The notes beneath the pieces are model-generated. The model made no database searches. It was not told where the DNA came from and saw only the letters and a list, made by a program, of their open reading frames with translations. From NCBI GenBank assembly GCA_034664005.1, contig JAXDIL010000118.1, positions 25,400 to 89,399 of the forward strand: DNA of 64,000 nucleotides. The letters are read 5' to 3'. Positions 3,409-19,080 of the stretch are shown in pieces. Numbering within the stretch: position 1 is the stretch's first letter; every line of letters begins with the position of its first letter. The DNA is from Thermoleophilaceae bacterium. GTDB lineage: Bacteria > Actinomycetota > Thermoleophilia > Solirubrobacterales > Thermoleophilaceae. The position numbers and the translations under genes are program-made.

Positions 3409-3479
3409 AAGCGCATCGTGCGACCACGGCCGGACGCGACGCGCCGGCCGTTGCCGTCAGTGTCGGCACTTACTCTCGG

Positions 3480-4475: not shown

Positions 4476-4564
4476 TCAGCGCGGGGCTACGGGGCTGGAG
4501 TCAGGCCCACCCACAGCAGAAACCGGGTACTGGGCGGCAATCTGAGTCCATACTCCGCCTGCAA

Positions 4565-5332: not shown

Positions 5333-5398
5333 AGGCCCCTCTGGGCCTTGGTGGTCGGGGCGACGGGCTACGCGTGGGTCCGGGACTAACACTCGGTG

Positions 5399-5980
5399 TC
5401 AGGTCCGTACGGCCGCCACCGCTTTGCTCAGCTCGGCCCAGCCCACCGGCCCCCGAGTGTGCCGGTCCAGGAAGCCCATGCCCACGGAGCGCGCCCGGTT
5501 GTCGCGGACCGCGTCGGCGTCGGCGACATAGAAGGCCCACTGGTCGACGTCGAGCGGCGCGTACTCGCTTGGCACCCTGCAGGTGTGGATAGCGAAGACG
5601 AACACGTCCGCCCGCACCTCACGCTCTGTGCCCCAGCCGCGCTTGTCGTCCCAAGAGAGCCCGGTGAGTCCGGTGAAGCGGATGTCGGAGAGCTTGCGCT
5701 GCGCCCAGCTCTGCAGGTACGCCGATGACTTGACCTCGATGCGGGTTCCGTCCGGCGTGAGCACGTCGTAGTTGTCCCACGCCGTCCGTACCGGTTGTTC
5801 GGCCCCGACGGCCTTGGCAACGAGGAACTCCGCGAGCACGCCGCGAACGATGTTGGTGCGGAGGTCGCTGAAGGCGAAGCTCCAGAAATCACGCACTGTC
5901 GTACCGGTCCCGGTGAAGCGCTCGCTGCCGTCGAGCGGGGCGACCTCTGTCGGCTCAAGCCATTCTGGTTCGTCGTCCAC
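5399..5980 (-). CDS. PD-(D/E)xK nuclease-like protein
   Basis: 193 aa. VRDFWSFAFSDLRTNIVRGVLAEFLVAKAV...WDNYDVLTPDGTRIEVKSSAYLQSW contains a D-x(n)-E-x-K core (YD...IEVK) typical of restriction-endonuclease-fold proteins. Confidence 0.7.
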   Translation of the reverse strand: MDDEPEWLEPTEVAPLDGSERFTGTGTTVRDFWSFAFSDLRTNIVRGVLAEFLVAKAVGAEQPVRTAWDNYDVLTPDGTRIEVKSSAYLQSWAQRKLSDIRFTGLTGLSWDDKRGWGTEREVRADVFVFAIHTCRVPSEYAPLDVDQWAFYVADADAVRDNRARSVGMGFLDRHTRGPVGWAELSKAVAAVRT

Positions 5981-6052
5981 GCGCGCCTCCTACGCGGTAC
6001 GGCCCAGAGCGCCTAGCGGGTCAGAACCCATGCACCCAGACACGGCCTCTGC

Positions 6053-7285
6053 TCACTCCTTGCCCGGGGTGTGGATGAAGAAGGTGTTCAGGTCGGCGTG
6101 ACGACGCTCGTCACCGGGCCAGCTGACGGTTGCCCGAAGCTCAGTCTCGGCAGCGGGGTCTTGCCACTCGACGAACTGCTCGTGAGCTTCGAGCGTCTCC
6201 CGCGCCTTCTCAATGATTTCCGTGAGCTCGCGCTGGCGGACGAACATCACGATGGCGAGTTTGGTGTCGCGCCAAGCCGTGTAGCGAAAGAGCTGGTCAA
6301 TCGTCTCCGAGAACCCCTTGGGTCCGCTCCAGAACTTGCACTCGCCAATGAAGAGGCTGCTGCCCTCATAGGAGACGAGGATGTCGGTCTTGCCCTGAGC
6401 GTTGAACGCCTCGGCGGTGGTATGGCCGCGATAGTGGGTGTGTAGGGCCGCGACCAGAACCTGTCGCCGGTCCTCCTCGCCCATTCCTTCGTAGGTGGCG
6501 GGGCTCGACTCCATCTTTTCGCCGGTTGCGCGGATGACCCCGAGGATGTGGTCGAAGACTTCCTTCGCGAGCACGGGTTCCAGCTGGACCGGTTCCTCTT
6601 CGCGCCTGGGCAGCTCGGGCGCCGGCAGTCGCAAGAGCGCCTCGGCGATATAGGTCTTCTCCTGCTGGTCTGGCGGTCCGACTGGCAAGCCCGTGTCGGC
6701 GATGTGCTGCTGATGGCGCTCGACGTGGTCGCGGCGGACACGGATGGCTTGCAGGGCCGTGTTCTTCAGGTCCGCGTTGTGTTGGTCTATGTCGTTGCGC
6801 GACCAGGTGAGGTGTTGCTCGACCTTGCTGGCGAGCTGCTGAGCGTGCGCCGTGATGTTGACCGGCGAGTCTTGGGGGTACTCGATGACGTCGGTGAGCT
6901 CGTGCTCGTGCACCGCCGCCCGCGGTGGGTTCATGCTGAACTGGCTCGCCTGCAGATTGAAGACGCCGTGGTCGCCGTCGAAGGGGATGTGGATGACGAC
7001 GCGGTAGCCGGGGATTAGCGCGCGTCGACCTGGAATCACGGCCCGCCTGAAATCGTGAGAAACGTCGACCTCGACCTGTGCCGGCTCGTCCTGCCACATC
7101 TTCTCCGGACGCAGGACCGGAGGCTCCACGCGGTATCGCTCGGCAAGGGCGTCCGCCCAGGCATCCTCGTCCGCTTGAAGGACGTGCTCGTCCGGAGTCT
7201 TCTGGACATCCTGGGACAAGCGCGCCTTGATGTTCTGAAGCGTGCCGCGCAGGTCGCCCCCGTAGAAGAGCAGGTCGCCGACCAT
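6053..7285 (-). CDS. Hypothetical protein with C-terminal PD-(D/E)xK nuclease-like domain
   Basis: 410 aa. The C-terminal GKTDILVSYEGSSLFIGECKFWSGPKGF...RDTKLAIVMFV has a D...E-C-K motif. The N-terminal ~280 aa has no motif I recognise. Same strand as hsdR, 162 bp downstream of it. Confidence 0.75.
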   Translation of the reverse strand: MVGDLLFYGGDLRGTLQNIKARLSQDVQKTPDEHVLQADEDAWADALAERYRVEPPVLRPEKMWQDEPAQVEVDVSHDFRRAVIPGRRALIPGYRVVIHIPFDGDHGVFNLQASQFSMNPPRAAVHEHELTDVIEYPQDSPVNITAHAQQLASKVEQHLTWSRNDIDQHNADLKNTALQAIRVRRDHVERHQQHIADTGLPVGPPDQQEKTYIAEALLRLPAPELPRREEEPVQLEPVLAKEVFDHILGVIRATGEKMESSPATYEGMGEEDRRQVLVAALHTHYRGHTTAEAFNAQGKTDILVSYEGSSLFIGECKFWSGPKGFSETIDQLFRYTAWRDTKLAIVMFVRQRELTEIIEKARETLEAHEQFVEWQDPAAETELRATVSWPGDERRHADLNTFFIHTPGKE

Positions 7286-7429
7286 GCACGGACCGTACTG
7301 GCGCGTCCCGACGGCTCAGGCGCCCAAAACCACCCCTCCGGACAGGCGCGCAGCAAGCCCCGGTTTACCAGCCGAAGCTCTCTGCGGTGCGGCTGTCCCT
7401 GAGCGGCGTTCATCTCTGCCGAGCCGTTT

Positions 7430-7444
7430 GCCCGGGCGCCGGGC
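7430..7444 (-). terminator. Short GC hairpin just downstream of the hsdR stop (weak terminator candidate)
   Basis: The minus strand reads GCCCGG-CGC-CCGGGC (6-bp stem, 3-nt loop) starting 4 nt after the hsdR stop. There is no U-tract, so the call is weak. Confidence 0.3.
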
Positions 7445-7447
7445 CTC

Positions 7448-10400
7448 CTACCAGGCGTCTATCTCGACCTCGGGCCAGCGTCGATACAGCGTCAGTGCCT
7501 GTTCGAGGATGAGGTCGGTGTAGATGTCAAGGGGCCGGCCTCCGCCGCCGTCGACTCCGCTGGCGGGTGGGTCCGGAAGGTCCCTGCGGTGTCGGCGCAG
7601 GAGACGCTTGATGCGCTTGCGCACTGCCGCCTCAGTGGACTCGTCTGAAGTCCAGTCGACGGTCAGGTCGCTGCGAATCCCCTGGACGAGCTCGCGCGCG
7701 ATGGTCACGAGCTTCGGGTCCGCAGTCCAGTTCTCGGGATTGCCGGCGAGCGCGTCGTAGAACGCCGCCTCTTCTTCCGTGAGTCCCAGTTCCTCGTGAC
7801 GATGGCGGGCCTCGCGAAGTTGTTTGGCAATCTCGACCAGCCGGGCCACGATTTCTGCGGAAGTGATGGTCCGGTTGTCGTAAGCCTGAAGCAGCTCGTC
7901 GATGCGGTCGGAGAAGAGCTTTGCCTGCAGGTGGTTCGACCGCAGCCGGACGCGAACCTCCTCGTCGAGGAGCCGTTTGATGAGGTTGACCGCGAGGTTC
8001 GGGCGTTCGCTGACCTTCTTCGTCACTTCGTCGAGGAACTCATCGGAGAGCACTGAGACCTCTGGGCGTTCCTTGCCGGCGAGCTTGAGCACGTCGACGA
8101 CCTCGCCGGCGGCGAGCCCTGTAGAGATGAACTGCTTGACCACCTGCTCGGCCTCGGGGCTTGCTTGGTCGGTCGGGGCCGCGTACGCGCGGACCTCCCG
8201 GGCAACCGCGCCGAAGAACTCGGCGTCGGTGGCCACCTCCACTGCTTCAGATGTGGTCCCGGCCAGCGCGAACCAGCGGCTGAAGAGCGTGTACTGCCTG
8301 AGGAACTCGGTGGTCGAGTCCTGGTCTTCGAGTAATAGGTCCGAGGCTTCCTCGATGAGTTCGGTGACTTCAGTCGCCGGCTTCGTCTCCCAGCCCGCGT
8401 ACTCGACGCCGTGGAGCATCGCCGCAACCACCTCATGCTTCTCGCGCATGTGCTTGACGGCAACCGCCAGCGGGACCGCGACGTCGTCGACATCTTGCTT
8501 GGCATAGGCGGTCAGGGAGGCACGCAGGTCCTCACCGATGCCGATGTAGTCGACGACGAGGCCTCCCGGCTTGTCACGGAAGACGCGGTTGACTCGGGCA
8601 ATGGCCTGCAGCAGACCGTGGTCCTTCATCGGCTTGTCGACGTAGAGGGTGTGCATAACCGGGGCATCGAAGCCGGTTAGCCACATGTCGCGAACGACAA
8701 CGATTCGCAAGGCTGAATCCGGCTGCTTGTAGAGCTCTTCGAGCTCCTCGCGCTGGTGGCGGGTGCGGCGGAAAGCCGAGATTTCCGGGTCGTCGGTGGC
8801 GGTGGCGGAGATGACCGCCGTGACCGCATCCTCACCTAAGTGGGCCTTGAGCCGTTTGACGAGGTCGACGCAGATGCGCTGGCTGTAGCCGACGACCATG
8901 GCCTTGCCCTCTTGGACCTTGCAGCGCTCGGTGTAATGCTCGGCGATGTCCTTGGCGACGACATCGAGTCGCTCGTCCGTCCCGACGAGTTTCTCCAAGC
9001 GCGCCCACGCGGTCTGAAGCTTGCGGGCGGCGCCTTCGTCCTCTTCGGACAGCACCTCCTCGGCCTCGCGAAGCAGCTCCTCGTCCTTGACATCGAGCGG
9101 GACCACCCGGCTCTCGTAGAAGATGGGCACGACCGCCCCGTCAGCCTCGGCGTCAGAAATGCGGTAGACGGACACGTAATCGCCGAAGGTCAGACGGGTG
9201 TTGCGGTCACCCGCCTCGATGGGCGTCCCCGTGAACCCGATGCGGATGGCGTTCGGGAGCGAGCGCGTGACGTTGCGGGCCAGGTCTCCGTACTGAGTTC
9301 GGTGCGCTTCGTCGGCCATGACGACGATGTTCGCGCGCTCGGATAGGACGGGCATCTGGCTGCGCTCACGGCCGGGGTCGAACTTCTGGATGGTCGTAAA
9401 GACGATGTCACCTGGCGGCCGTCGCAGGAGCTCGTGGAGCGACTCCTCCTTCCGGCCCTCGGTCGGGCCTTTGGGCGGCTCGATACGTTCCGCGCGCTTG
9501 ACCGCTGCGGCGAGGTGTTTCTGGCGCCGGAAGGTCTTGTACAGCTGGTCGTCGAGCTGCTCACGGTCGGTGAGGGCGACAACGGTCGGGGACTCGAAGC
9601 GAGGGTCCTTGCGGAGCTTCGAGGTGTAGAAGGCCATCAGGTAGCTCTTGCCTGAACCCTGGGTGTGCCAAATGACGCCGGCGCGGCCGTCGCCGTTCAT
9701 CGCCGCCCAGGTGGCCTCCAGCGCTTTCTCGACCGCCTGGACCTGGTGGTACTTGGCCATCACCTTCCAGGTCTTGGCGCCATCGGTCTCGAACATCACG
9801 TAGTTGGCGATGAGGTCGAGGAATCGCGCGGGCGTGTAGACGCCTTGAAGCATGACTTTCAGCCCCGTCTGCTTTTTCTCGCCGGGCTGCGGGTCCATGG
9901 TCTTCCACTCGGCGAAGTGCTCCGCCGGCGTTGTCACAGTTCCGACACGGGCTTCGCGGCGGTCGGTGACGGCGATGACCTCGATGAAGCGATAGAGGTA
10001 CGGGATGTCCTGCCAGTAGCCGGCGACCTGGTTGATGACCGCTTGCCCGCCCTTGTCGCCGGGCGCCTTGGCTTCGATTTGGCCCAAGGGGATGCCGTTG
10101 ACAAACAAGAGAATGTCGGGCCGACGCTTCTTCTCCGTTGGACCCGAACCCTGCTCGACGCGGAACTGGTTGACGGCTAGGAACTCGTTGTTGGTGGGGT
10201 CGCCGAAGTCGACGAGCTTCGCTCGGCCGGACTGCTCTTCACCGGAGGAGTCGGTCCAGGTGACGGGCACGCCGAGGACGAGAAACTCGTGAAACGCGTA
10301 ATGGTCGTCGATGAGGACCACAGACGTCGACTCGCGGACGTCTGTGATGACGGCGTCGACCGCCTCATCGGGTAGGTGCGGGTTGAGATGGGCAATGGCG

Positions 10401-10570
10401 TTCCTGAGCCGACGAACAAGTAGGACCTCCCGGTAGTCACCGCGCTCGCTCGCAGGCGCGGAGGGCGCGAGCTTGTGTCCGGGTGCGTGCTCCCAGCCCA
10501 GCTCCTCAAGCCATGCGAGCGCCGGCTGCTCCACCAGCGCGTCTTCGCCGAGCTTGAGGCTGGAGCTCAT
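7448..10570 (-). CDS. hsdR: Type I restriction enzyme, R subunit (helicase/endonuclease)
   Basis: 1040 aa. HsdR-type N-terminus (EDALVEQPALAWLEELGWEH), SF2 helicase motifs (WHTQGSGKS, MADEAHRTQYG, FTGTP) and a long helical C-terminal region. Lies 4 nt downstream of hsdS. Confidence 0.95.
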   Translation of the reverse strand: MSSSLKLGEDALVEQPALAWLEELGWEHAPGHKLAPSAPASERGDYREVLLVRRLRNAIAHLNPHLPDEAVDAVITDVRESTSVVLIDDHYAFHEFLVLGVPVTWTDSSGEEQSGRAKLVDFGDPTNNEFLAVNQFRVEQGSGPTEKKRRPDILLFVNGIPLGQIEAKAPGDKGGQAVINQVAGYWQDIPYLYRFIEVIAVTDRREARVGTVTTPAEHFAEWKTMDPQPGEKKQTGLKVMLQGVYTPARFLDLIANYVMFETDGAKTWKVMAKYHQVQAVEKALEATWAAMNGDGRAGVIWHTQGSGKSYLMAFYTSKLRKDPRFESPTVVALTDREQLDDQLYKTFRRQKHLAAAVKRAERIEPPKGPTEGRKEESLHELLRRPPGDIVFTTIQKFDPGRERSQMPVLSERANIVVMADEAHRTQYGDLARNVTRSLPNAIRIGFTGTPIEAGDRNTRLTFGDYVSVYRISDAEADGAVVPIFYESRVVPLDVKDEELLREAEEVLSEEDEGAARKLQTAWARLEKLVGTDERLDVVAKDIAEHYTERCKVQEGKAMVVGYSQRICVDLVKRLKAHLGEDAVTAVISATATDDPEISAFRRTRHQREELEELYKQPDSALRIVVVRDMWLTGFDAPVMHTLYVDKPMKDHGLLQAIARVNRVFRDKPGGLVVDYIGIGEDLRASLTAYAKQDVDDVAVPLAVAVKHMREKHEVVAAMLHGVEYAGWETKPATEVTELIEEASDLLLEDQDSTTEFLRQYTLFSRWFALAGTTSEAVEVATDAEFFGAVAREVRAYAAPTDQASPEAEQVVKQFISTGLAAGEVVDVLKLAGKERPEVSVLSDEFLDEVTKKVSERPNLAVNLIKRLLDEEVRVRLRSNHLQAKLFSDRIDELLQAYDNRTITSAEIVARLVEIAKQLREARHRHEELGLTEEEAAFYDALAGNPENWTADPKLVTIARELVQGIRSDLTVDWTSDESTEAAVRKRIKRLLRRHRRDLPDPPASGVDGGGGRPLDIYTDLILEQALTLYRRWPEVEIDAW

Positions 10571-10574
10571 CCGC

Positions 10575-11774
10575 CTACGCCACTAAGGCGCCGTCTGTAT
10601 TGATGGGGAGAGGCAGGCTAAGTCTCCCGGCGAACACCTCGCGCAATGTGAGGTCGCGTAGCTTTTCTAGAACGACGTTTTGTTTCCGTGCATGGTCTTC
10701 TAGTTCGAGCAGAGGTTGCCCAGAGTCAATCCACCGCCCAAGCGCCTCTTCTTCTGGACGCGGCACCGGGGCTGACAGCAAGTCGCCGGGTCTGATGCGC
10801 TGATGAGAGCCGGTCGTTCCCGCGACGTGCGCGAGAACGAACGTGCGGAACGTCTGGTCAAAACGGACTGCTGCGTGGAGGTAGCTGAAGGGGAAGGGCT
10901 TCCTCGGTTGCACCGCGAGAAACTCGGTTGAGCAGACCGCACGGGTATCGGCCTGCGGAGCGGCGGCCCAAACGCGCCACTGCCGACCGGGATTCAGCTT
11001 GGACACGAGCACCGCTCGGCCGTCGAGAAGCGTCTTGCCGGACTTGATGGTCGACCCGAGAACGCGCTCAGGAAGCCGTCCGTTATCGAAGGCAGGGATG
11101 CTGTAATGGTCGAACTCGTCGGTCGGCGCGCGGAGGGGTTGAACCGAGGTTCGGATTTGCGTCGCCACGTCGTCTAGACGCATCTCAGTGGCGCCCTCGA
11201 TGACTTCGGCATAGAGAAGGCGGGCAAGCGCGGCGAGGTTGTCGGCCATTCTCAGGTTGAGCTCTGCATGAGCATCCAAAGCACCAAGCGACTCAGAGAT
11301 GGAGCGCTGCTCCCCGGGGTCGTGGAGCAGCGGAACCTGCAGTGCTCGGATATCCGACATGTTCAGGTGCGCCACGGTTGAGCCTTCGGAGCGGCTGGTC
11401 ATTGCGTGCTGTAGCTGCGGCGAAAGCAGCAGGTAGAGCAAATACCGAGGTTCAACGCGTGAAGGGTCAGGCCGAAGTAAGACCGTCCGCTGCCCAAGAC
11501 AGATGCGGGCATCGTCCGGGACGATGCCGACGGCTCCAACCGGTGCTTCGCGGGCCAGAACGAGGTCTCCCGTACGCGGCTCCATTCGCTGGCTCCACGT
11601 CCTCCACGTCCCTTCGCTGACTCGCTTGGCTTGGTGAAGTAGCAATCTCCCAGCGCGAATGTCCCGGGTTCCCGGCGCGTAGTACTCGCCGGTGGGGTCA
11701 GCGGGGGCAGTTTTGTGCTCGCAATCGATGATGGCCTCGCACAGGTCATCGAGGCGAGCGTGCGGCGCAGTCAC
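10575..11774 (-). CDS. hsdS: Type I restriction-modification specificity subunit
   Basis: 399 aa with two target-recognition-domain halves separated by helical spacers. Its GTG start overlaps the hsdM stop (GTGA at 11774-11771). It sits between hsdM and hsdR. Confidence 0.9.
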   Translation of the reverse strand: MTAPHARLDDLCEAIIDCEHKTAPADPTGEYYAPGTRDIRAGRLLLHQAKRVSEGTWRTWSQRMEPRTGDLVLAREAPVGAVGIVPDDARICLGQRTVLLRPDPSRVEPRYLLYLLLSPQLQHAMTSRSEGSTVAHLNMSDIRALQVPLLHDPGEQRSISESLGALDAHAELNLRMADNLAALARLLYAEVIEGATEMRLDDVATQIRTSVQPLRAPTDEFDHYSIPAFDNGRLPERVLGSTIKSGKTLLDGRAVLVSKLNPGRQWRVWAAAPQADTRAVCSTEFLAVQPRKPFPFSYLHAAVRFDQTFRTFVLAHVAGTTGSHQRIRPGDLLSAPVPRPEEEALGRWIDSGQPLLELEDHARKQNVVLEKLRDLTLREVFAGRLSLPLPINTDGALVA

Positions 11775-13363
11775 CTGGTGGTGACTCCGAAGCGCTCTGC
11801 AATCAAGTCGCGGAGTTCTTCCGCCTTCTCGAACTGGTGAGCGAGTTCCGTCTGTAGAGCAGCGATGCGCTCGCCCGCCGGTCCTGCTCCGTCATCGCTC
11901 CAGGCGGCTCCCACGTATCGACCCGGAGTCAACGCAAACTTGTGGGCCTCAATCTCATTCAAGGTCGCGGACCTGCAGAACCCTTCTTCGTCCGCGAAGT
12001 CGCTGCCGTTCCGCCACTCGTGGTACTTGCTAGCGATGCGCCCGATGCCCGCCTCAGTCAACTCGACCTGCGTGCGGCTGAGCTTCTCGCCCATCGCGCG
12101 GGCGTCGACGAATAGCACTTCGCCTCGGCGGTCCCGTTTGCCCTCACTCGCCTTGTCCCGGTCTAGGAACCATAGGCACACAGGGATGCCGGTCGTGTAG
12201 AAGAGCTGGGCAGGGCAGGCGACGACGCAGTCGAGAAGGTCATCCCGGACGATGGCTTCGCGGATGGCGCCTTCTCCCCCAGAGTTGGACGTCAAGGAGC
12301 CGTTCGCCATCACGAAGCCGGCACGTCCGTCCGGGGCCAGGTGGGCGATGAAGTGCTGAATCCATGCGTAGTTGGCATTCCCGTCCGGCGGCAACCCGTA
12401 CTTCCAGCGGGAGTCCTTTGACACGCGGTCGACGCCCCATGCCTTTTGGTTGAACGGCGGATTGGCAAGTACGAAGTCCGCGCGCAAGCTCTGGAACTGG
12501 TCGTCGAGCAGGGACCCGCCTTCGGTGTACCTGAGGTCGCCGGACAGCCCGTGAATAGCGAGGTTCATTCGGCCGATGCGCCAGGTGGCCTGGTTCTTTT
12601 CCTGCCCGTAGATGCGGATATCGCGGGGACGTCCGTCATGTGCCTTGACGAACTTCGCGCTCTGCACGAACAAGCCGCCGGACCCGCAGGCGGGGTCAAA
12701 GACCCGGCCCTCATAGGGCTCCAACATTTCGACCAACAGCCGCGTCACCGAAGCCGGCGTGTAGAACTCGCCGCCGCGGTGGCCTTCGTTTCGAGCGAAG
12801 GTCTTGATGAAGTACTCGTAGGTGCGGCCGAGTATGTCCCGCGCGGTTTCCTCGTCGTCGCCAAAGCCAATGCGGTCGATGGTCTTGACCAGCTCACCCA
12901 GTGTTGTCGGGTGCAGCGGCGCGCGGGCGTAGATGCGGGGCAGGACACCGCGTAGCTGGTTCTCGTTTTCGGCCTCGATGACCTTGAGCGCCTTGTCAAC
13001 GCGCTCCCCAATGTCCGGCTGGGTCACCGCGGTCATGAGCTCCGACCAACGAGCGCCTTCGGGGACCCAAAAGACGTTCTCGGAGACGTATTCGTCGCGG
13101 TCTTCGAGAATGTCGTGCCGCTCATCCGCGTTGTCGGTGAAGTACTCATCGTTCTCGGGGTCGCGCGTCCAGGAATCGATTCGAGCCCGCTGGCGCTCGA
13201 ACGAGTCGGAGATGTACTTCAGGAAGATGAGGCCGAGAACGAGATGCTTGTACTCCGCCGACTCCACGGAACCGCGGAGCTGGTCGGCCGCTGAGAAGAG
13301 GTCGCGAGCGAACGGCAGGTCGCCGCCATTCCCGTTCGGCACTGCGTTGGAAGATGTCGTCAC
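11771..13363 (-). CDS. hsdM: Type I restriction-modification N6-adenine DNA methyltransferase subunit
   Basis: 530 aa. HsdM N-terminal block (LRGSVESAEYKHLVLGLIFLKYISD), SAM-binding DPACGSGG and catalytic NPPF (LANPPFNQKAW). Confidence 0.95.
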   Translation of the reverse strand: MTTSSNAVPNGNGGDLPFARDLFSAADQLRGSVESAEYKHLVLGLIFLKYISDSFERQRARIDSWTRDPENDEYFTDNADERHDILEDRDEYVSENVFWVPEGARWSELMTAVTQPDIGERVDKALKVIEAENENQLRGVLPRIYARAPLHPTTLGELVKTIDRIGFGDDEETARDILGRTYEYFIKTFARNEGHRGGEFYTPASVTRLLVEMLEPYEGRVFDPACGSGGLFVQSAKFVKAHDGRPRDIRIYGQEKNQATWRIGRMNLAIHGLSGDLRYTEGGSLLDDQFQSLRADFVLANPPFNQKAWGVDRVSKDSRWKYGLPPDGNANYAWIQHFIAHLAPDGRAGFVMANGSLTSNSGGEGAIREAIVRDDLLDCVVACPAQLFYTTGIPVCLWFLDRDKASEGKRDRRGEVLFVDARAMGEKLSRTQVELTEAGIGRIASKYHEWRNGSDFADEEGFCRSATLNEIEAHKFALTPGRYVGAAWSDDGAGPAGERIAALQTELAHQFEKAEELRDLIAERFGVTTR

Positions 13364-13452
13364 GTCGTCAACCTTCTATTCGATACGGAAGCATCCGGCC
13401 TGTCGGCGGAAGTCAGCCTAACTTGACGAACAGTCGGGATGGGAGGCTCGTC

Positions 13453-14271
13453 TTGACTTACGAGCGACCCCTGGCAATCCGCGATAGCCCGTCGGAAAGA
13501 GGTCAGGTTGAACCTCTAGCGACCGATGAGACGACCATGAAGGCGGTGGAGCAACGCTGGCTCGACTACGCATGGACGGTGGTCAACGCGTCCCAGCACC
13601 ACCGTCGCGGCTGCCTTGTCCGCGATGCCGCCTCGGGCCGCGGGCTCGACGGCGGCAACGACATCCGCTTCCCCGGCTTCCTGGGTGAGCGATACACGCC
13701 GGAGCAAGGCCTTCTCTGCGTTGGCCAGGTCCACAGGGAACCCACGAATCCGGAGCATCTCGATGGGGACCCCGAGCGCTTTATCGCCGCCCACCGCGCT
13801 TGGCGGGAGTCCGGACGACTCGCCGACGCCGACACCGCCTTCCTCGCGGAGGTTCGTCGTTACTACGCCGCCACCGCGGCCAGTTGGAACCCTTGGCACA
13901 CGCACTTCAAGCGCATGGTCGTCGGCGAACTCGGACTCGACATGTCCCACATCGCTTACACGAACCTCGCGAAGTGTCGCCAGAACCCTGCCGGCAAGAA
14001 CCCGAGGAAGCTGTCGGACTATTGCCAGCAGGACTTCCCCGTCGACCGTTTGGTGGAAGTGCTGCAGCCGGTCGCGGTCATCGTCTGCGTCATCTCCGCG
14101 GACCCCACCCGCGAGGGCCGCTGGGCAAGCCCCTCGTGGGAGCCGCTCGTGTTCGCGTGCGAGGGCCGCAATGGATGCGACGTTCGCGGACGGGGCCCGA
14201 CGGTATGGGCTCCGGAAGCGGCGGCTCGTGTGCGCCAGCGCTGGTCTCAGTTGGAGACCGCGACGACTTAG
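13453..14271 (+). CDS. Uracil-DNA glycosylase superfamily-like protein (distant)
   Basis: YTNLAKCRQNPAGKNPRKLSDYCQQDF resembles the family 4/5 UDG block (N-x-x-KCRPP-x-NR-x-P...C). LLCVGQVHRE sits where the GEAPG-type motif would be. Start chosen at TTG 13453, which has GGGAGG 6 nt upstream. ATG 13537 is the alternative. The track start 13354 would overlap hsdM. Confidence 0.55.
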   Translation: MTYERPLAIRDSPSERGQVEPLATDETTMKAVEQRWLDYAWTVVNASQHHRRGCLVRDAASGRGLDGGNDIRFPGFLGERYTPEQGLLCVGQVHREPTNPEHLDGDPERFIAAHRAWRESGRLADADTAFLAEVRRYYAATAASWNPWHTHFKRMVVGELGLDMSHIAYTNLAKCRQNPAGKNPRKLSDYCQQDFPVDRLVEVLQPVAVIVCVISADPTREGRWASPSWEPLVFACEGRNGCDVRGRGPTVWAPEAAARVRQRWSQLETATT

Positions 14272-14325
14272 CTCGGAGCCGGAGCGGTGCGAGGTAGCTT
14301 TCGCCTCCGCTTATCTGTGCGCTGG

Positions 14326-15645
14326 TCAGAGGTTGGGTTCCGGCACGTCCGAGCCCATTCGCTGGAGGAGGTTGCGACCGATGTATGCGCCAGGAGCGTT
14401 GGGGCGGTACTTAGCGAGAAGCTCCCTGTGGAAGACATCGACGAACTGCTCCGGGAGACGCTCGAATGCCTGGTTGAGTTCATCGGTTGCGTCGAATGGA
14501 CTGTCTTCGAGCAGGGCTCTAACGAGCGCGCTTACGACGCGCTCCGCGTCGGCTTCAGTGAAATGCGGCGCGAGCATGCAAGCGAGCCTGGTGGCATAGG
14601 CCTGGGCGTCCCAACCCCCACCCAAGCGTGAGACAAGCGTGTCGAGGAGGTCGGCTCGGCGCTCGTCCGAGACAGCGGGGAACAGGCGTGCTGTCGCCTC
14701 TTCGAGCACCGCGCCGGAGCGCACGCCCCGATTAACTATCCCCGCGCTCAAGTCGTCGATGACTGCGAGAGCAACTTTGTCTTGGTGCCTGCGTTCGAGC
14801 AGCTCGTAAACGGTCGGCGTCACCATCTCGATGCCGAGGATTAGCGTGTCATCGTCAGCAATCCACCGTCCGCAGCGATTGGCCGCGACCCGCACGGGCG
14901 CGTCCTCTGTGCCGAGGCGGTGGAGCGCCCGGTGGTAGACGATGCGAAGGTTTCGGGCCTTCGTGCCGTCGTTCGCGTCCGCGGCGTCTTTGACGCGGTC
15001 CATCAGCTTTTCGACGAGCTCTGGCCGCCGACCGGTGGGAACGCTGTGAATGAGGTCATCGGCCGCTTCGCGAGTGGCGGGGAACCGAGGTTGCGACGCC
15101 TCGTCGACAGCCTCGTCGACGGCTACCGGTGAAGACGCTGCCTCAAGGTGGCGAGCACAGATGCTCATGACGGCCAAACGCTCGAACGCCCCGGCTCGGT
15201 CGCCCTCAACCGGACTTTCAGTCTGGTGCATTTCTGGGTTCCGGACGTAGAAGGCAACGCCAGTCAGGAATCGCCAAACCCCACGGTGCATGTCGCGTTC
15301 AGTGTCGTTGGACATACCAGTCAGGGGCAGCTGAGGCGTCGTGTCGCCAATGCGCTCCATCAGCTGCGACCCATCGAGGTTAGGCTGGTTCAGCCGTTGG
15401 CGGGCCAGGTCCCGCAACGCGAACCACGCGTCCTGGAGCGCGGCCGGGTAGTCCCCTCGCTCCCAATCCTCTTGAGCAGCATCGGCGATGAGCGGATGCA
15501 TCTCGTCGAAGTGAAGGCGCCGCTCGGGCTCATCGACAGTTGGAGGGTCCAGCTCGTCGTGGGGGTCGTCGACGTCGGTCACGGTCGAACAGGGTCGCAC
15601 GACAACCAAAAAAGCTTCCGTTTCGCCGGTCACCGAGCGCAACAC
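14326..15645 (-). CDS. TIGR02391 (Hypoth_Ymh) domain protein with long helical C-terminal extension
   Basis: 439 aa. The N-terminal part (LHFDEMHPLIADAAQEDWERGDYPAALQDAWFALRDLARQRL...GVWRFLTGVAFYVRNPEMHQ) fits the TIGR02391 pattern (HP-I, G-Y-AV, IRNP-x-H). The remaining ~270 aa are helical and unassigned. Start uncertain. Confidence 0.7.
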   Translation of the reverse strand: MLRSVTGETEAFLVVVRPCSTVTDVDDPHDELDPPTVDEPERRLHFDEMHPLIADAAQEDWERGDYPAALQDAWFALRDLARQRLNQPNLDGSQLMERIGDTTPQLPLTGMSNDTERDMHRGVWRFLTGVAFYVRNPEMHQTESPVEGDRAGAFERLAVMSICARHLEAASSPVAVDEAVDEASQPRFPATREAADDLIHSVPTGRRPELVEKLMDRVKDAADANDGTKARNLRIVYHRALHRLGTEDAPVRVAANRCGRWIADDDTLILGIEMVTPTVYELLERRHQDKVALAVIDDLSAGIVNRGVRSGAVLEEATARLFPAVSDERRADLLDTLVSRLGGGWDAQAYATRLACMLAPHFTEADAERVVSALVRALLEDSPFDATDELNQAFERLPEQFVDVFHRELLAKYRPNAPGAYIGRNLLQRMGSDVPEPNL

Positions 15646-16065
15646 TGCGCTCGCCCCAGACGCCCGAGCGCGACTTCGAGCTCATCGTGGGCCGACATGA
15701 GCACTGACGCATAGCCATGGCGTGCCTCGGCGGCCGCGGTAAGTCGGGCTGGCAGGGCGTGCGCGACGACCGGTGGCCGCCGGCGCACGCCCTTCGGTTC
15801 GCGGACCGTCTATCGGCCACGAACGAGCTCCCACACCGTCAGTGCGAGAAGCAGAGTCACGAAATCCATATCGGGCCTTTTCTTCGACCGGCTCCGATGG
15901 CCGGGTTGGCCAGTTCCCTGGCACTAATTACGTGGCCCGATGCAGGGGTCTTTGTAGTGCGAGAGCGCGGTCGTCTTGTAGGCGCGGATATCAACCATTA
16001 CGCCAGAGAACCCTGCAGAAGACGTGGTCCCTGGTGGCTGGCGGGCCTAGGCCCTGCAACCGGCG

Positions 16066-16791
16066 TCAGTCGGGCTTGTCGCCGAGCGAGCGCAGCGCTT
16101 CTTCCAATGCTCGCTCAGTCGCCTGAATCTCGCTCGTCAACTCGGTCCTTCTCACACGGGCGGCAGCGATGTCGTCGACGCCGGCATCCACGGGTAGGTC
16201 TTGCGCCGCGGCGAGCGCAGCGCCTAATTCAGTCAAGCGCCGTCGCGCGCGCTCGGGGAACAAGAAGTCGAGCTGGTAGGTGCCAGCAGCGCTAGTCCGT
16301 TGCACCACCGGCGAGCGGCCAACCTGCGTCAGGAAGGTGGCCACAGGGTCCTTGCCAGCGGGTAGGAAGCCTTCGCGCGTGAACAGCTCGAACCAGGTCC
16401 GATAGTGCACCGGGCTTCGGGCTTGTGTCGAACCAGCAAGAACTCTCACCGCGGCCTCGCGGATACGAGCTCCTTTGAGAACGAGGTTCCCCGTTGGAAC
16501 AGGGTCCGCGCTCCGGTTCGGAACTGCCCGTAAGCGAGAGCCTCCGTTGCGAGTTGCGGGAGTGATGTCGTCGTGCACGAAGCGGTTGAGCATGCGGAGG
16601 TGATTGGCCAGCTCCTCGCGCGCCGCTTCGACGGCGGCGAGCTCGCGCCCAAGCTCGTCCCGCCGCGCTTGAAGCCTCGCGGCTTCGCGTTCCACACGTT
16701 CGCGTTCTGCGAACGCGGCTGAGCGCATCCGCCGTGAAGGAGTCCATGTCTCGGACGTGGTCACCTCCGGAGCAATAGCGGCTTTAGCCAT
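16066..16791 (-). CDS. Coiled-coil protein with central winged-helix (HARE-HTH-like) segment
   Basis: 241 aa. Heptad-rich N- and C-termini (ERERVEREAARLQARRDELGRELAAVEAAREEL; RRTELTSEIQATERALEEAL) flank IREAAVRVLAGSTQARSPVHYRTWFELFTREGFLPAGKDPVATFLTQVGRSPVVQRTSAAGTYQLD, which resembles HARE-HTH domains. Confidence 0.6.
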   Translation of the reverse strand: MAKAAIAPEVTTSETWTPSRRMRSAAFAERERVEREAARLQARRDELGRELAAVEAAREELANHLRMLNRFVHDDITPATRNGGSRLRAVPNRSADPVPTGNLVLKGARIREAAVRVLAGSTQARSPVHYRTWFELFTREGFLPAGKDPVATFLTQVGRSPVVQRTSAAGTYQLDFLFPERARRRLTELGAALAAAQDLPVDAGVDDIAAARVRRTELTSEIQATERALEEALRSLGDKPD

Positions 16792-17100
16792 GAACAGGGA
16801 TGTTGATGGCTGAGCGCGACGTTCCTACACGCCAGTCCTACAGCGGGTCGCTACACCTGGACCGCTGGCAACGTCTCGGACGACCCTGTGGACAGCATGT
16901 TCATAGGCAACGAAAGCGCCTGCACAGGGATGAAGCGACCGTCGAACGCTGCCTGTAGGCATCGCTGGCACCGTCGGCGACTTCGCTATTTCGGCGCTTT
17001 TCTAATCCGCTTGAGAGCTACACCGGCGGCTGTGCCGTCCGAGGGTCGGTGTTCAATCGTTCCTGTCGTCACAAACTCGACCTCAACGGAGGCGCCTCAG

Positions 17101-17331
17101 ATGGGCAAGGACCAGCACGTCGTCAAGCGAGATGAGGGGTGGGCGGTGCGCGGTGAGGGGAACTCACGGGACACCTCGCTGCATCCCACCCAGGCGGAGG
17201 CGATTGACGCTGGCCGCGATATCGCGCGCAACCAGCACTCGGAGCTGGTCATCCATGACCGTCAGGGACGCATCCGGGATAGCGACTCGTACGGGAATGA
17301 CCCCAACCCGCCGAAGGACCGCCGCCACTGA
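17101..17331 (+). CDS. DUF2188 family small protein
   Basis: 76 aa. MGKDQHVVKRDEGWAVRGEGNSRDTSLHPTQAEAIDAGRDIARNQHSELVIHDRQGRIRDSDSYGNDP matches the DUF2188 pattern. GGAGG lies ~11 nt upstream of the ATG. The track ORF start at 16888 is probably too far upstream. Confidence 0.8.
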   Translation: MGKDQHVVKRDEGWAVRGEGNSRDTSLHPTQAEAIDAGRDIARNQHSELVIHDRQGRIRDSDSYGNDPNPPKDRRH

Positions 17332-17360
17332 GCGCCGGCGGGCTCGCAAGGAGAGAAACG

Positions 17361-18893
17361 ATGAACGCAGGCTGGCTCTTGTTGGGAATCATCATCGGGG
17401 TGGCCCTGGGCCTTCCGCTCGTGCGAGCGTTGTTCCGCTCCCGCACGGAGACCGCGCAGGCTGAGCGAGACGGTGCCCATGCCGCAGCCGAGCAGGTGGC
17501 GGCCGAGCGAGACCGGGCGGTCGGGCGCTGCCAAGAGCTGGAGGAGGCGGTCGACGAGAAAACAGCGCGCTGCGGAGAGCTGGAGCGCGAGAAGCTCCGC
17601 GTAGAGGCTGCCCTTAAGGAGCAGCTCGCGGGCGTGACAAGCACGCTGGAGGCCGAGCGTGCCGCTCACGAGGAGAAGGTCGTCGCGCTGACGGCGCTCG
17701 GCGACGATTTTCTCGCGCGCGTGGCCCAGACCGCCGGGTCGGCGTTCCAAGGGCAGGGCAAGCATTTCGTCGAGCTCATGAAGGCCGAGTGGGGGAAGGC
17801 CAAGGCGGAGTCCGACGCCGACCTCGCTCAGCGCCAGAAGGCCGTCGAGGATGTTGTGAAGCCGCTGCAGGAGTCGGTCGGCGTCATCACTCGCCGCATG
17901 GAGGAGATTGACCGTGGCCATCGCCAGGCGAACACGCAGCTTGGGGAACAGCTTCGGGCGCTAGTGGAGAGCGAGAAGGACCTCCGCGGCGAGACCGGTG
18001 CGCTCTCCCGCGCTTTGCGGCAGCCGCAAACCCGCGGCCGGTGGGGCGAGCTCCACCTGGAGCGGGCGGTCGAGCTCGCCGGCATGGTCGAGCACGTCGA
18101 CTTCGAGCGCCAGTCGAGCGTCGTCGACGACGGTGCCGTGCTGCGGCCGGACGTGGTCGTGACCTTGCCGAAAGGAAAGCACCTGGTGGTCGATGCCAAG
18201 GCGCCCATCCACTCCTTCTTCGATGCCGGTGAGACGGCAGACGACGAAGCGCATGAGGCACGGATGAAGCTGTACGCCCGTGGCCTTCGGGCTCACGTCA
18301 AGAAGCTGGCGGCGAAGCAGTACTGGTCGCAGTTCGAGTCCTCGCCGGAGCTCGTGCTCATGTACCTCCCTGGGGAGCATCTGCTGAGCGCGGCGGCCCA
18401 AGTGGATTCGGCGCTCATCGAGGACGCGGTGCGCCAGCGAGTGCACATCGTGACCCCGACGACCATGATGGTCACGCTGCGGACCGTCGCCTGCGCTTGG
18501 CAGCAGGAACGCGTCGCCGAGGACGCCCGAGCCGTCGCTCGGGAAGGTCAGCTCATCTATGAGCGTCTCGACAAGTTCCTCTCGCTGTTCGGGAAGCTTG
18601 GGGCCGCGCTGAACCGGACCGTCGGGGCCTACAACGAGGTGGTCGGCTCGGGCGAACGTCGCCTACTGCCAGCCGTCCGCCGGCTCGCCCAGCGGGGAGT
18701 CGTCAACTCCACCAAGGAGCTGCCTGAGCTGACGCCCGTCGACCGACGGGCAGCCGAACTCCAAGCCGGAGAGTTCGTCGAGGGCAGCGCCGAGGAGTTG
18801 GCGGTGCCCGACACTGCTCCACCTCCTCCGGAGGAGGAGGCCGAACCTGGCGAGACTTCGGAGGAGGGTCAGTCCGAAACCGAGGCTGCCTGA
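17361..18893 (+). CDS. rmuC: DNA recombination protein RmuC family (coiled coil plus PD-(D/E)xK-like nuclease domain)
   Basis: 510 aa. N-terminal TM helix, long coiled coil, then the conserved RmuC core (LRQPQTRGRWGELHLERAVELAGMVEHVDFERQ...VVDAKAPI...LMYLPGEHLL). AAGGAGAG RBS upstream. Confidence 0.9.
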   Translation: MNAGWLLLGIIIGVALGLPLVRALFRSRTETAQAERDGAHAAAEQVAAERDRAVGRCQELEEAVDEKTARCGELEREKLRVEAALKEQLAGVTSTLEAERAAHEEKVVALTALGDDFLARVAQTAGSAFQGQGKHFVELMKAEWGKAKAESDADLAQRQKAVEDVVKPLQESVGVITRRMEEIDRGHRQANTQLGEQLRALVESEKDLRGETGALSRALRQPQTRGRWGELHLERAVELAGMVEHVDFERQSSVVDDGAVLRPDVVVTLPKGKHLVVDAKAPIHSFFDAGETADDEAHEARMKLYARGLRAHVKKLAAKQYWSQFESSPELVLMYLPGEHLLSAAAQVDSALIEDAVRQRVHIVTPTTMMVTLRTVACAWQQERVAEDARAVAREGQLIYERLDKFLSLFGKLGAALNRTVGAYNEVVGSGERRLLPAVRRLAQRGVVNSTKELPELTPVDRRAAELQAGEFVEGSAEELAVPDTAPPPPEEEAEPGETSEEGQSETEAA

Positions 18894-18943
18894 GCCTCGG
18901 TGGCGCGGTCAAGTTTGGGGATAGAGCCCGCGCCATCCCCAAA
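18882..18943 (+). terminator. Cluster of interleaved hairpins at and after the rmuC stop (terminator or 3' structured element)
   Basis: GAGGCT/AGCCTC (18882-18898) spans the stop codon. TGGCGCGG (18901-18908) pairs with CCGCGCCA (18928-18935). TTTGGGGAT (18914-18922) pairs with ATCCCCAAA (18935-18943). The last two helices interleave. No T-tract follows. Confidence 0.35.
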
Positions 18944-19037
18944 ACCCCCGGATAAGTACGTGGTTCCGTGGGCATTCTCCCGCCGAGGCGCGCAAAGTTC
19001 CGCTTGGTAGAGCGGTTTGAGCCCAACGGGCGCTTAT

Positions 19038-19080
19038 ATCGCACCCAGGAGGCCGCCGGTTCGAGTCCGGCTAGCTCCAT
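19038..19080 (+). repeat. Direct repeat of the tRNA-Ala 3' part (att-like junction, copy B)
   Basis: ATCGCACCCAGGAGGCCGCCGGTTCGAGTCCGGCTAGCTCCAT is identical to tRNA positions 32-73 plus the next base. There is no 5' acceptor strand or anticodon-stem partner upstream, so this is not a functional tRNA. Confidence 0.9.

What the first reader, a model, noticed from the sequence alone, without database searches (positions are those of the whole stretch)
13453..14271. Divergent UDG-superfamily-like gene next to hsdM: candidate antiviral DNA glycosylase
Seen in sequence: a ~270-aa ORF divergent from hsdM carries YTNLAKCRQNPAGKNPRKLSDYC. This resembles the conserved N-x-x-KCRPP-x-N-x-x-P...C block of family 4/5 uracil-DNA glycosylases. 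The canonical GEAPG and HPS motifs are replaced (LCVGQVHRE; no HPS). Established knowledge: UDG-fold glycosylases that excise modified phage bases (the Brig1 type) have been reported as anti-phage defences. Inference: a divergent UDG-fold protein embedded beside a type I R-M system could be a defence glycosylase aimed at modified phage DNA, not a housekeeping repair enzyme.
Basis: partly seen in the sequence, partly recalled or inferred. Interest (0 to 1): 0.65.

Follow-up and report, generated by a model that had tools for sequence, protein, structure and literature searches.

The report
Unannotated UDG-fold gene in defence island
A small gene beside a restriction system, on a horizontally acquired island, encodes a very diverged relative of uracil-DNA glycosylases from an unnamed, rare protein family, and it is a reasonable but untested candidate for an enzyme that cuts unusual bases out of foreign DNA.

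Summary
The ORF, the YTNLAKCRQNPAGKNPRKLSDYC block, LCVGQVHRE and the absence of HPS are all present. The conserved protein starts at ATG 13537 (244 aa), not 13453.

No Pfam, NCBIfam, PADLOC or PHROG model matches it. It belongs to a real family of about 350 clusters at 50% identity. A confident AlphaFold2 model (pLDDT 94) matches only UDG-superfamily structures, with family 4 UDGs best (Foldseek E 1.6e-5, TM 0.42/0.52). Profile-profile alignment to family 4/UdgX gives 83.5% probability over the N-x-x-K-C…C core.

The family keeps:
- the base-recognition Asn (N143);
- a C-x15-C pair plus H22-x3-C26, a possible [4Fe-4S] site.

Motif A is replaced by V-H-R-E, and the motif B histidine is lost in this protein.

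It is not a Brig1 homologue (hhalign 0.1%).

The gene lies in a 17.1-kb low-GC island at tRNA-Ala, bounded by 51-nt direct repeats. The island also carries a type I R-M system, PDC-S54 and a Hypoth_Ymh protein. Homologues are rare (17 loci in 185,579 species genomes), scattered across phyla, and have no conserved partner. Many sit next to relaxases, transposases or restriction genes, and some have housekeeping neighbours.

A defence glycosylase role is plausible but inferred. No activity, substrate or pocket geometry could be tested.

The parts
13537..14271 (+). CDS of the UDG-fold protein (244 aa plus stop). This is the conserved core shared with all homologues.
   Evidence: ORF. Homologues start at this Met. 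A 244-aa product is called on the source contigs. AF2 pLDDT 94.3, pTM 0.92. Foldseek top hits are family 4 UDGs.
13453..13536 (+). Possible 28-codon N-terminal extension from TTG 13453, with GGGAGG at 13441-13446. It is not conserved in homologues.
   Evidence: Sequence. Alignment A1 shows no conservation upstream of the Met.
13600..13614 (+). H22-x3-C26 in helix 2. Proposed N-terminal pair of metal-cluster ligands, replacing the C-x2-C of family 4 UDGs.
   Evidence: H22 in 91/100 and C26 in 99/102 family members. The H-C-C-C pattern is present in 85 of 97 full-length members. UdgX is a precedent for a His ligand (PMC4787834).
13666..13686 (+). R44-F-P-G-F-L-G50 loop (family consensus R-W-P-G-Y-L-G) before strand beta-1. 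It is the best conserved loop of the family.
   Evidence: R44 100/110, P46 107/111, G47 111/111, G50 109/111.
13711..13740 (+). Strand beta-1 plus the motif A position: L-L-C-V-G-Q-V-H66-R-E. It replaces the GE(A/G)PG of family 4.
   Evidence: Strand E59-63 in the model. H66 in 101/111 members. Family 4 motif seen in alignment A4.
13771..13929 (+). Three-helix insertion (residues 79-131) between beta-1 and beta-2, carrying conserved W89, D99, Y110 and W117. Family 4 UDGs have no counterpart.
   Evidence: Helices H79-92, H96-116 and H118-131. Conservation. Family 4 has a single helix here.
13951..14025 (+). N143 is equivalent to the base-recognition Asn of family 4. C147 and C163 are equivalent to the two C-terminal Fe-S cysteines.
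   Evidence: hhalign alignment to Tth UDG residues 61-126. N143 109/112, C147 110/112, C163 108/112. Cys-Cys spacing has its mode at 15-16.
14146..14172 (+). Strand beta-4 and the motif B position: L-V-F-A-C-E209-G-R-N. There is no HPS histidine in this protein.
   Evidence: Strand E204-208. Position 209 across the family is H 24, N 21, D 12, Q 11, E 6 of 113.
1919..1991 (+). tRNA-Ala(CGC), the integration site of the island.
   Evidence: ARAGORN.
1992..19080 (.). Genomic island of about 17.1 kb bounded by 51-nt direct repeats (1942-1992 and 19030-19080, 94% identical). GC is 0.63-0.67 inside, against about 0.72 in the flanks.
   Evidence: Repeat family D1. Composition profile.
7448..13363 (-). 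Type I restriction-modification operon: hsdM 11771-13363, hsdS 10575-11774, hsdR 7448-10570. It is a neighbour, not a conserved partner.
   Evidence: Pfam. PADLOC: REase_I E 1.5e-226, MTase_I E 5.5e-172, Specificity_I E 6.9e-43. It is not conserved next to homologues.
14326..15645 (-). Convergent neighbour: a 439-aa protein with a Hypoth_Ymh (PF09509/TIGR02391) domain.
   Evidence: Pfam E 8.5e-17. PADLOC gives a weak Aga_HEPN hit, E 2.3e-4. The neighbour of the closest homologue is unrelated.
6053..7285 (-). Homologue of the PADLOC candidate defence gene PDC-S54, in the same island.
   Evidence: PADLOC E 2.4e-118, full length.

Best explanation

Shown:
- It has the UDG alpha/beta fold.
- It keeps the Asn at the end of strand beta-2 (N143), which in family 4 enzymes reads the Watson-Crick face of the flipped pyrimidine.
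- It keeps four conserved residues (H22, C26, C147, C163) where family 4 enzymes have the four cysteines of their [4Fe-4S] cluster.
- It has a conserved V-H-R/N-E/D in place of motif A.
- It has a 50-residue three-helix insertion rich in conserved Trp, Tyr and Asp.
- The gene lies in a horizontally acquired defence island.
- The family moves between phyla.

Inferred: the protein binds DNA and flips a non-canonical base into a pocket remodelled by the new motif A, the R-W-P-G-Y loop and the helical insertion. It then cleaves the N-glycosidic bond. The resulting abasic sites block replication of foreign DNA (phage or another mobile element) that carries that base, while host DNA lacking it is spared. 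This is how Brig1, Brig2 and Brig3 work.

Because the Asn is retained, rather than the Glu/Gln/Asp used by the cytosine-directed Brig1 and Brig3, a uracil- or thymine-type base with a bulky 5-substituent is the most likely substrate class. This last step is the weakest inference.
For: Fold:
- AF2 model pLDDT 94.3, pTM 0.92.
- All top 50 Foldseek PDB hits are UDG superfamily. Best are Tth UDG 1ui1 (E 1.6e-5, prob 1.00, TM 0.42/0.52), Sto UDG 4zbx (6e-5) and UdgX (9e-4).
- BFVD hits are phage PolA-UDG fusions and COG1573 UDGs.

Sequence:
- The only PDB sequence hit of the family profile is 4zbx.
- hhalign to family 4/UdgX gives 83.5%, E 8.3e-6, pairing N143 with N80, C147 with C84 and C163 with C100.

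Conservation over 113 members:
- N143 109/112, C147 110/112, C163 108/112, C26 99/102, H22 91/100, H66 101/111.
- The H-C-C-C pattern is in 85/97.
- A His replacing one cluster Cys has a precedent in UdgX (PMC4787834).

A real family under selection:
- 351 clusters at E<=1e-3 and 246 at E<=1e-10.

Accessory and mobile character:
- 17 loci in 185,579 species genomes, spread over at least seven phyla.
- 84-91% identity between the Binatia and Thermodesulfobacteriota copies, and 81% between Zixibacteria and Ignavibacteria.
- Window island bounded by tRNA-Ala repeats, with lower GC.

Defence and mobile-element neighbours:
- Window: type I R-M, PDC-S54, Hypoth_Ymh.
- L015: SIR2_2/Dsr2-like plus Type ISP directly downstream.
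- L013: Mrr_cat directly upstream.
- L005: HerA/DUF87, SACS/NOV_C and a methyltransferase.
- L001/L011: conjugative-element genes.
- Transposases in L004, L016 and L019.

Precedent: stand-alone UDG-fold antiviral glycosylases Brig1 (PMC11078745), Brig2 (10.1101/2025.10.29.685425) and Brig3 (10.64898/2026.02.25.707755).
Against: - No enzymatic, substrate or phage data exist for any member.
- Both canonical catalytic motifs are altered. The motif B histidine is absent in this protein (E209) and kept in only 24/113 members, so the protein could be inactive or do something else.
- Structural similarity is moderate (TM 0.42-0.52, rmsd above 8 A), and the profile match covers only the central 65 columns.
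- No PADLOC model matches.
- There is no match in 72,556 plasmids or 50,697 phage genomes.
- Several homologues have housekeeping neighbours: a molybdate ABC transporter (L002), TruB (L008), and PrmC in two syntenic Dehalococcoidia (L017/L020).
- I did not compare neighbourhoods statistically against a background.
- The pocket could not be inspected, and metal binding cannot be tested in silico.
Confidence: 0.5

Rival explanations
1. It is a DNA-repair glycosylase of unusual specificity (deaminated, oxidised or alkylated bases). It serves the host or the element that carries it and has no role in immunity.
For: Its closest relatives by structure and profile are repair enzymes: family 4 UDG, UdgX and SMUG1. 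The pocket Asn and the Fe-S ligand pattern are retained. Some homologues have housekeeping neighbours and conserved synteny (L017/L020, L008, L002). The conjugative element in L001 also carries an ordinary PF03167 UDG.
Against: The distribution is extremely sparse and patchy (17 of 185,579 species genomes), unlike any housekeeping glycosylase. Near-identical copies occur across phyla. The window copy is on a tRNA-bounded island among defence genes. Motifs A and B are not the repair-type ones.
Confidence: 0.2
2. It has the UDG fold but is not a base-excising defence effector. It could be a DNA or modified-base binding protein, a UdgX-like covalent trap, or a function that benefits mobile elements, for example removing marks or lesions that a host defence places on incoming DNA.
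For: Canonical motifs A and B are lost. UdgX shows that family 4 relatives can bind without turnover (PMC4787834). It recurs inside conjugative or mobilisable elements next to TrwC/TrwB/Replic_Relax genes. Getz et al. report that six of seven integron UDG-like candidates gave no phage protection.
Against: The base-recognition Asn and a conserved His at the motif A position are under strong conservation, as expected for an active pocket. There is no KRRIH-type loop like that of UdgX between C147 and C163. Family 2 and family 5 UDGs are active with non-canonical motifs (general knowledge of the superfamily).
Confidence: 0.2
3. The ORF is a chance open frame in GC-rich DNA and the motif match is coincidental.
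For: High-GC DNA has many long spurious ORFs. No curated family model matches.
Against: There are 351 homologous clusters with conserved motifs, a pLDDT 94 model, and a consistent UDG-only hit list.
Confidence: 0.01

Closest known systems
Family 4 uracil-DNA glycosylases (UdgA; Thermus thermophilus 1ui0, Sulfolobus tokodaii 4zbx, Thermotoga maritima 1l9g)
   Same: Best structural matches and the only sequence-profile match. The order of elements is the same: N-terminal helix with metal ligands, beta-1 plus motif A loop, beta-2 ending in T-N-x-x-K-C, a helix carrying the second Cys about 16 residues later, then beta-3, beta-4 and a C-terminal helix.
   Different: There is no PF03167 hit. Motif A GE(A/G)PG becomes G-x-V-H-R-E. 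Motif B HPS/HPA is absent here. The N-terminal C-x2-C becomes H-x3-C. It has a 50-residue three-helix insertion and a conserved W-L-x-Y-A N-terminal helix. It occurs in accessory rather than core genomic positions.
Brig1 and Brig3 (UDG-superfamily antiviral glycosylases excising alpha-glucosyl-hmC and 5hmC)
   Same: Stand-alone UDG-fold gene in a defence island of a high-GC soil bacterium. Brig1's best structural match is also S. tokodaii family 4 UDG (PMC11078745). The proposed mechanism is the same: excision of a phage-specific base, abasic sites, then a replication block.
   Different: There is no detectable sequence relationship to Brig1 (hhalign 0.1%). Brig1 uses N-x-E with Glu (reported as Q147 in the later paper) on the Watson-Crick face and shows no C...C pair in its sequence, whereas this family has N-L-A-K-C and a putative Fe-S site.
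Brig2 (integron-encoded UDG-like protein active against phages with 5-substituted uracils)
   Same: UDG fold, spread by horizontal transfer, often near mobile elements or defence genes. An Asn-type pocket would fit a thymine/uracil-derived target.
   Different: The Brig2 sequence could not be obtained, so homology is untested. Brig2 homologues are mainly Pseudomonadota and Bacillota. This family was found in Chloroflexota, Binatia, Actinomycetota and other soil or subsurface lineages.
UdgX (Mycobacterium smegmatis)
   Same: Family 4 derivative. Among the top structural hits. One Fe-S ligand is a histidine (PMC4787834).
   Different: UdgX keeps GEQPG and HPS motifs and has the KRRIH loop that cross-links to DNA. 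None of these is present here.

Membership tests
UDG superfamily (fold level) | Alpha/beta fold with a central parallel sheet, as in UNG, MUG, SMUG and family 4-6 enzymes | tested here: met
   AF2 pLDDT 94.3. All top 50 Foldseek PDB hits are UDG-superfamily, with best E 1.6e-5, prob 1.00 and TM 0.42/0.52. BFVD hits are UDG domains.
UDG superfamily (fold level) | Conserved Asn at the end of strand beta-2 that contacts the flipped base (N80 in Tth, N82 in Sto) | tested here: met
   N143 aligns with N80 in hhalign and is present in 109/112 members. Its role in the pocket is inferred, not seen.
Family 4/5 UDG (Pfam PF03167 members with an Fe-S cluster) | Matches the family sequence model | tested here: not met
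   No Pfam or NCBIfam hit at E<=1. A local family 4 profile finds nothing in the window.
Family 4/5 UDG (Pfam PF03167 members with an Fe-S cluster) | Motif A GE(A/G)PG (family 4) or GLAPG (family 5) after beta-1 | tested here: not met
   The window has G-Q-V-H-R-E. The family consensus is [GA]-x-[VI]-H-[RN]-[ED].
Family 4/5 UDG (Pfam PF03167 members with an Fe-S cluster) | Motif B HP(S/A) after beta-4 | tested here: not met
   The window has F-A-C-E-G-R. His occupies that column in only 24/113 members.
Family 4/5 UDG (Pfam PF03167 members with an Fe-S cluster) | Four cluster ligands: C-x2-C ... C-x14-17-C | tested here: inconclusive
   C147-x15-C163 is present and conserved, and the N-terminal pair is H22-x3-C26. 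A His ligand has a precedent in UdgX. Cluster binding and ligand geometry could not be tested.
Brig1 family | Sequence homology to Brig1 | tested here: not met
   hhalign of the 113-sequence profile against Brig1 (sequence from PMC11078745 supplement) gives probability 0.1%.
Brig1 family | Excision of a phage-specific modified base, and protection against that phage | not testable with these tools
   This needs biochemical and phage assays.
Brig2 / Brig3 families | Sequence homology to Brig2 or Brig3 | not tested
   Sequences were not retrievable. The family profile found no PDB chain other than 4zbx, but I do not know whether Brig3 is in that copy.
UdgX | KRRIH loop with the cross-linking His, plus GEQPG and HPS motifs | tested here: not met
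   No such loop or motifs appear in the window protein or the family alignment.
Defence-island gene (operational class) | Located in variable, horizontally acquired regions enriched in defence genes | tested here: met
   Met for the window: tRNA-Ala island with 51-nt repeats, lower GC, type I R-M, PDC-S54 and Hypoth_Ymh. For the family it is only partly met: many loci carry mobile-element or defence neighbours and some carry housekeeping ones. No background statistics were done.

The most novel reading that the evidence does not exclude
This would be the first antiviral or anti-mobile-element DNA glycosylase built on the Fe-S-cluster (family 4-type) UDG scaffold. It would be a separate invention from Brig1, Brig2 and Brig3. 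Its remodelled pocket (V-H-R-E, the R-W-P-G-Y loop and an aromatic three-helix lid) would be aimed at a hypermodified thymine/uracil-type or other bulky base. It would be carried between distant phyla by conjugative elements.
Probability: 0.3. Interest if true: 0.65.

Novelty: new variant of a known kind. Interest (0 to 1): 0.55.

Why it matters
Antiviral DNA glycosylases were recognised only in 2024-2026, and the known UDG-fold examples (Brig1-3) were each found by functional or structure-guided screens. This family escapes every curated model (Pfam, NCBIfam, PADLOC, PHROGs), so current defence-finding pipelines are blind to it.

If it is active, three things follow:
- It would add an Fe-S-containing scaffold to the class.
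- It would give a handle on base modifications in phages of poorly studied soil and subsurface bacteria.
- It could supply a new specificity for mapping or editing modified bases.

If it is not a defence enzyme, it is still an uncharacterised seventh-plus branch of a well-studied repair superfamily, defined by clear diagnostic motifs: W-L-x-Y-A, H-x3-C, R-W-P-G-Y-x-G, V-H-[RN]-[ED] and N-x-A-[KR]-C...C.

Tried and rejected
- **Curated libraries.** Pfam, NCBIfam, PADLOC and PHROGs gave no meaningful hit. Single-sequence phmmer against PDB gave only noise.
- **Conserved partner gene.** All-against-all BLAST of ORFs from 24 loci found no shared neighbour apart from near-duplicate loci. The Hypoth_Ymh neighbour is not conserved next to the closest homologue. 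Functional coupling to hsdM or to the Ymh protein is therefore rejected.
- **Domain fusions.** Ten longer family members have no Pfam domain in their extra regions.
- **Plasmids and phages.** tblastn found no match in either collection.
- **Brig1 membership.** Rejected.
- **Brig2 and Brig3 comparison.** Not possible, because the supplementary tables are truncated.
- **The PF03167 protein on the L001 element.** It has no PDB relative by phmmer, so it could not serve as a bridge.
- **Promoter and terminator scans.** Nothing was found around the gene. The consensus used is poorly suited to high-GC bacteria.
- **Start site.** TTG 13453 has the better Shine-Dalgarno sequence, but homology and database gene calls favour ATG 13537. 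This is left open.
- **Pocket inspection and ligand distances.** Not possible, because model coordinates are not exposed.
Full report
**Observation.**
- The + strand frame is open from 13354 to 14271.
- It contains HIAYTNLAKCRQNPAGKNPRKLSDYCQQDF and LLCVGQVHREPTN, and it has no HPS.
- It is transcribed divergently from hsdM (11771-13363, minus strand; PF02384 E 6.7e-104).
- All 21 homologues first found align only from the ATG at 13537 (M-K-A-V-E-Q-R-W-L-D-Y-A-W).
- Gene callers on two independent assemblies of this locus give a 244-aa product.
- I therefore treat 13537-14271 as the gene and 13453-13536 as a possible extension.

**Is it a real gene and family?**
- No Pfam, NCBIfam, PADLOC or PHROG model matches it.
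- The word-indexed search of 5.8 billion proteins found only 22 relatives, none with a Pfam domain.
- An exhaustive profile search of 1.84 billion cluster representatives found 351 at E<=1e-3 and 246 at E<=1e-10.
- In a 113-sequence alignment the nearly invariant positions are W8, H22, C26, R44, P46, G47, G50, L60, H66, W89, D99, Y110, W117, N143, A145, C147, C163, P168, P178 and W224 (244-aa numbering).
- This is a genuine protein family under selection, not a chance ORF.

**Fold.**
- AlphaFold2 with the family alignment gives pLDDT 94.3 and pTM 0.92.
- All of the first 50 Foldseek matches in the PDB belong to the UDG superfamily:
  - Thermus thermophilus family 4 UDG: E 1.6e-5, prob 1.00, TM 0.42 by query and 0.52 by target.
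  - Sulfolobus tokodaii family 4 UDG: E 6e-5.
  - UdgX: E 9e-4.
  - Thermotoga UDG, SMUG1 and TDG follow.
- Against viral models, the hits are UDG domains fused to phage DNA polymerase A, and COG1573 UDGs.
- The TM-scores are modest. The protein has extra N-terminal helices and a three-helix insertion (residues 79-131) that family 4 lacks.

**Sequence bridge to family 4.**
- The family profile finds a single PDB chain, 4zbx (E 0.14), aligned over N-x-x-K-C-R...C.
- I confirmed the Tth UDG sequence against the PDB and took the Thermotoga, Sulfolobus and UdgX sequences from the printed alignments, then aligned the four.
- hhalign of the 113-sequence profile against them gives 83.5% probability and E 8.3e-6 over 65 columns. 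It pairs I-A-Y-T-N143-L-A-K-C147 with V-Y-I-T-N80-I-V-K-C84, and C163 with C100.

**What is kept and what is changed.**
- Kept: the Asn that contacts the flipped base in family 4 (N143, 109/112).
- Kept: the two C-terminal cluster cysteines (110/112 and 108/112), with spacing whose mode is 15-16 residues.
- Changed: the N-terminal C-x2-C becomes H22-x3-C26. The H-C-C-C combination occurs in 85 of 97 full-length members.
- UdgX also has one ligand replaced by His and still carries a 4Fe-4S cluster (PMC4787834). A cluster here is plausible but untested.
- Changed: motif A GE(A/G)PG becomes G-x-V-H66-[RN]-[ED].
- Changed: the motif B position after strand beta-4 is E209 here. Across the family it is H 24, N 21, D 12, Q 11 of 113.
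- By the motif-based definition of UDG families (PMC4787834), this protein belongs to none of the described families.

**Genomic setting in the window.**
- tRNA-Ala lies at 1919-1991. Its last 51 nt recur at 19030-19080 with 94% identity.
- GC is 0.63-0.67 between these repeats and about 0.72 outside them. This is a 17.1-kb integrated island.
- No integrase was recognised among its ORFs.
- The island carries:
  - DUF5677 and DUF429 proteins;
  - a T4 endonuclease IV-like protein;
  - a PDC-S54 homologue (E 2.4e-118) and a complete type I R-M system;
  - the UDG-like gene;
  - a Hypoth_Ymh protein;
  - DUF2188 and RmuC.
- No canonical UDG is present anywhere in the window.

**Setting of homologues.**
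- In one genome per species (185,579 species) there are 17 loci. They are in Dehalococcoidia, Binatia, Thermodesulfobacteriota, Zixibacteria, Ignavibacteria, Acidobacteriota and Thermoleophilia/Solirubrobacterales.
- Copies in Binatia and Thermodesulfobacteriota are 84-91% identical, and copies in Zixibacteria and Ignavibacteria are 81% identical. This indicates recent transfer between phyla.
- No neighbour is conserved across loci.
- Individual contexts with mobile-element or defence neighbours:
  - L001/L011: a conjugative element with TrwB-like, Replic_Relax and serine recombinase genes.
  - L005-7: a HerA/DUF87 - UDG-like - SACS/NOV_C gene string with a methyltransferase.
  - L015: a SIR2_2/Dsr2-like gene and a Type ISP enzyme directly downstream.
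  - L013: Mrr_cat directly upstream.
  - L004, L016, L019: transposases.
  - L010, L012, L015: a shared ~1000-aa protein that is probably the TrwC relaxase; TrwC matched two of the scanned neighbour ORFs, but that scan does not say which loci.
- Contexts with ordinary neighbours:
  - L002: ABC transporter and glycosyltransferases.
  - L008: TruB.
  - L017/L020: syntenic, with PrmC and an oxidoreductase.
- There is no match in PLSDB plasmids or GenBank phages.
- The family is accessory and mobile, and often but not always sits next to defence genes. I did not test this against a background.

**Comparison with what is known.**
- Stand-alone UDG-fold glycosylases that excise phage-specific bases are established:
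  - Brig1 acts on alpha-glucosyl-hmC. Its best structural match is also S. tokodaii UDG (PMC11078745).
  - Brig2 acts on 5-substituted uracils (10.1101/2025.10.29.685425).
  - Brig3 acts on 5hmC (10.64898/2026.02.25.707755).
- The Brig1 sequence, taken from the paper's supplement, shows no relationship to this family (hhalign 0.1%). It lacks the K-C...C pair.
- Brig2 and Brig3 sequences were not obtainable.
- Literature searches found no description of an Fe-S-type UDG-like defence family.

**Interpretation.**
- Most likely (about 0.5): a family 4-derived glycosylase with a remodelled pocket that removes a non-canonical base from foreign DNA.
- The retained Asn argues weakly for a uracil/thymine-type target, rather than the cytosine derivatives read by Glu/Gln/Asp in Brig1 and Brig3.
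- Rivals:
  - a repair enzyme of odd specificity (0.2);
  - a non-excising binder, or a function that serves mobile elements (0.2);
  - a chance ORF (excluded).
- The link to hsdM suggested by the adjacency is not supported.

**Verdict.** The functional part is a sound but untested hypothesis within an already known class of defence. Interest is moderate (0.55). The finding is a new variant of a known kind.

Noticed in passing
window 1919-1992 and 19030-19080: tRNA-Ala(CGC) and a 94%-identical 51-nt copy of its 3' end lie 17.1 kb apart and delimit a low-GC island. No integrase was recognised among the island's ORFs, so the element may be a decayed or non-autonomous island.
   Followed up: partly
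window 6053-7285 (-): A 410-aa protein matches the PADLOC candidate system PDC-S54 over its full length (E 2.4e-118) and has no Pfam domain. It sits immediately downstream of hsdR.
   Followed up: no
window 5399-5980 (-): A 193-aa protein carries a precomputed PF26887 (Phage_T4_End_IV) hit and a weak PADLOC methyl-directed REase hit. A T4 endonuclease IV-like nuclease in a bacterial defence island is unusual.
   Followed up: no
window 14326-15645 (-): A 439-aa protein has an N-terminal Hypoth_Ymh/TIGR02391 domain (E 8.5e-17; weak Aga_HEPN hit) and a C-terminal region with a sub-threshold DnaG_DnaB_bind match. It is convergent with the UDG-like gene. PaREP1 (HEPN-type) genes sit directly upstream of the UDG-like gene in L017, with a related ORF in L019.
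   Followed up: partly
window 16888-18893 (+): DUF2188 and RmuC genes lie inside the island boundaries. The RmuC also matches the PADLOC 'RTasRmuC' (DRT-associated) model, E 5.2e-47.
   Followed up: no
L005 3921-11444 (also L006, L007): The UDG-like gene lies in a tight same-strand string: unknown 413 aa, then HerA/DUF87 ATPase, then the UDG-like gene, then a large SACS/NOV_C protein. In L005 its stop overlaps the next start by 4 nt. This could be a multi-gene system that uses the UDG-like protein.
   Followed up: no
L010, L012-L015; L018 and L021: UDG-like proteins are 84-91% identical between Binatia and Thermodesulfobacteriota chromosomes, which share a ~1000-aa protein that is probably a TrwC relaxase. 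They are 81% identical between Zixibacteria and Ignavibacteria. This indicates recent inter-phylum transfer.
   Followed up: partly
L014 9914-10804; L022 226-812; L024 6906-7880: Some copies look degraded or variant. The reading frame is split in L014 and L022 (possibly assembly errors). In L024, downstream of a 1607-aa RHS-repeat protein, only the C-terminal half of the ORF resembles the family.
   Followed up: no
L001 1799-2500 (-): The conjugative element that carries a UDG-like copy also encodes a PF03167 UDG-domain protein. That protein has no detectable PDB relative by phmmer.
   Followed up: partly
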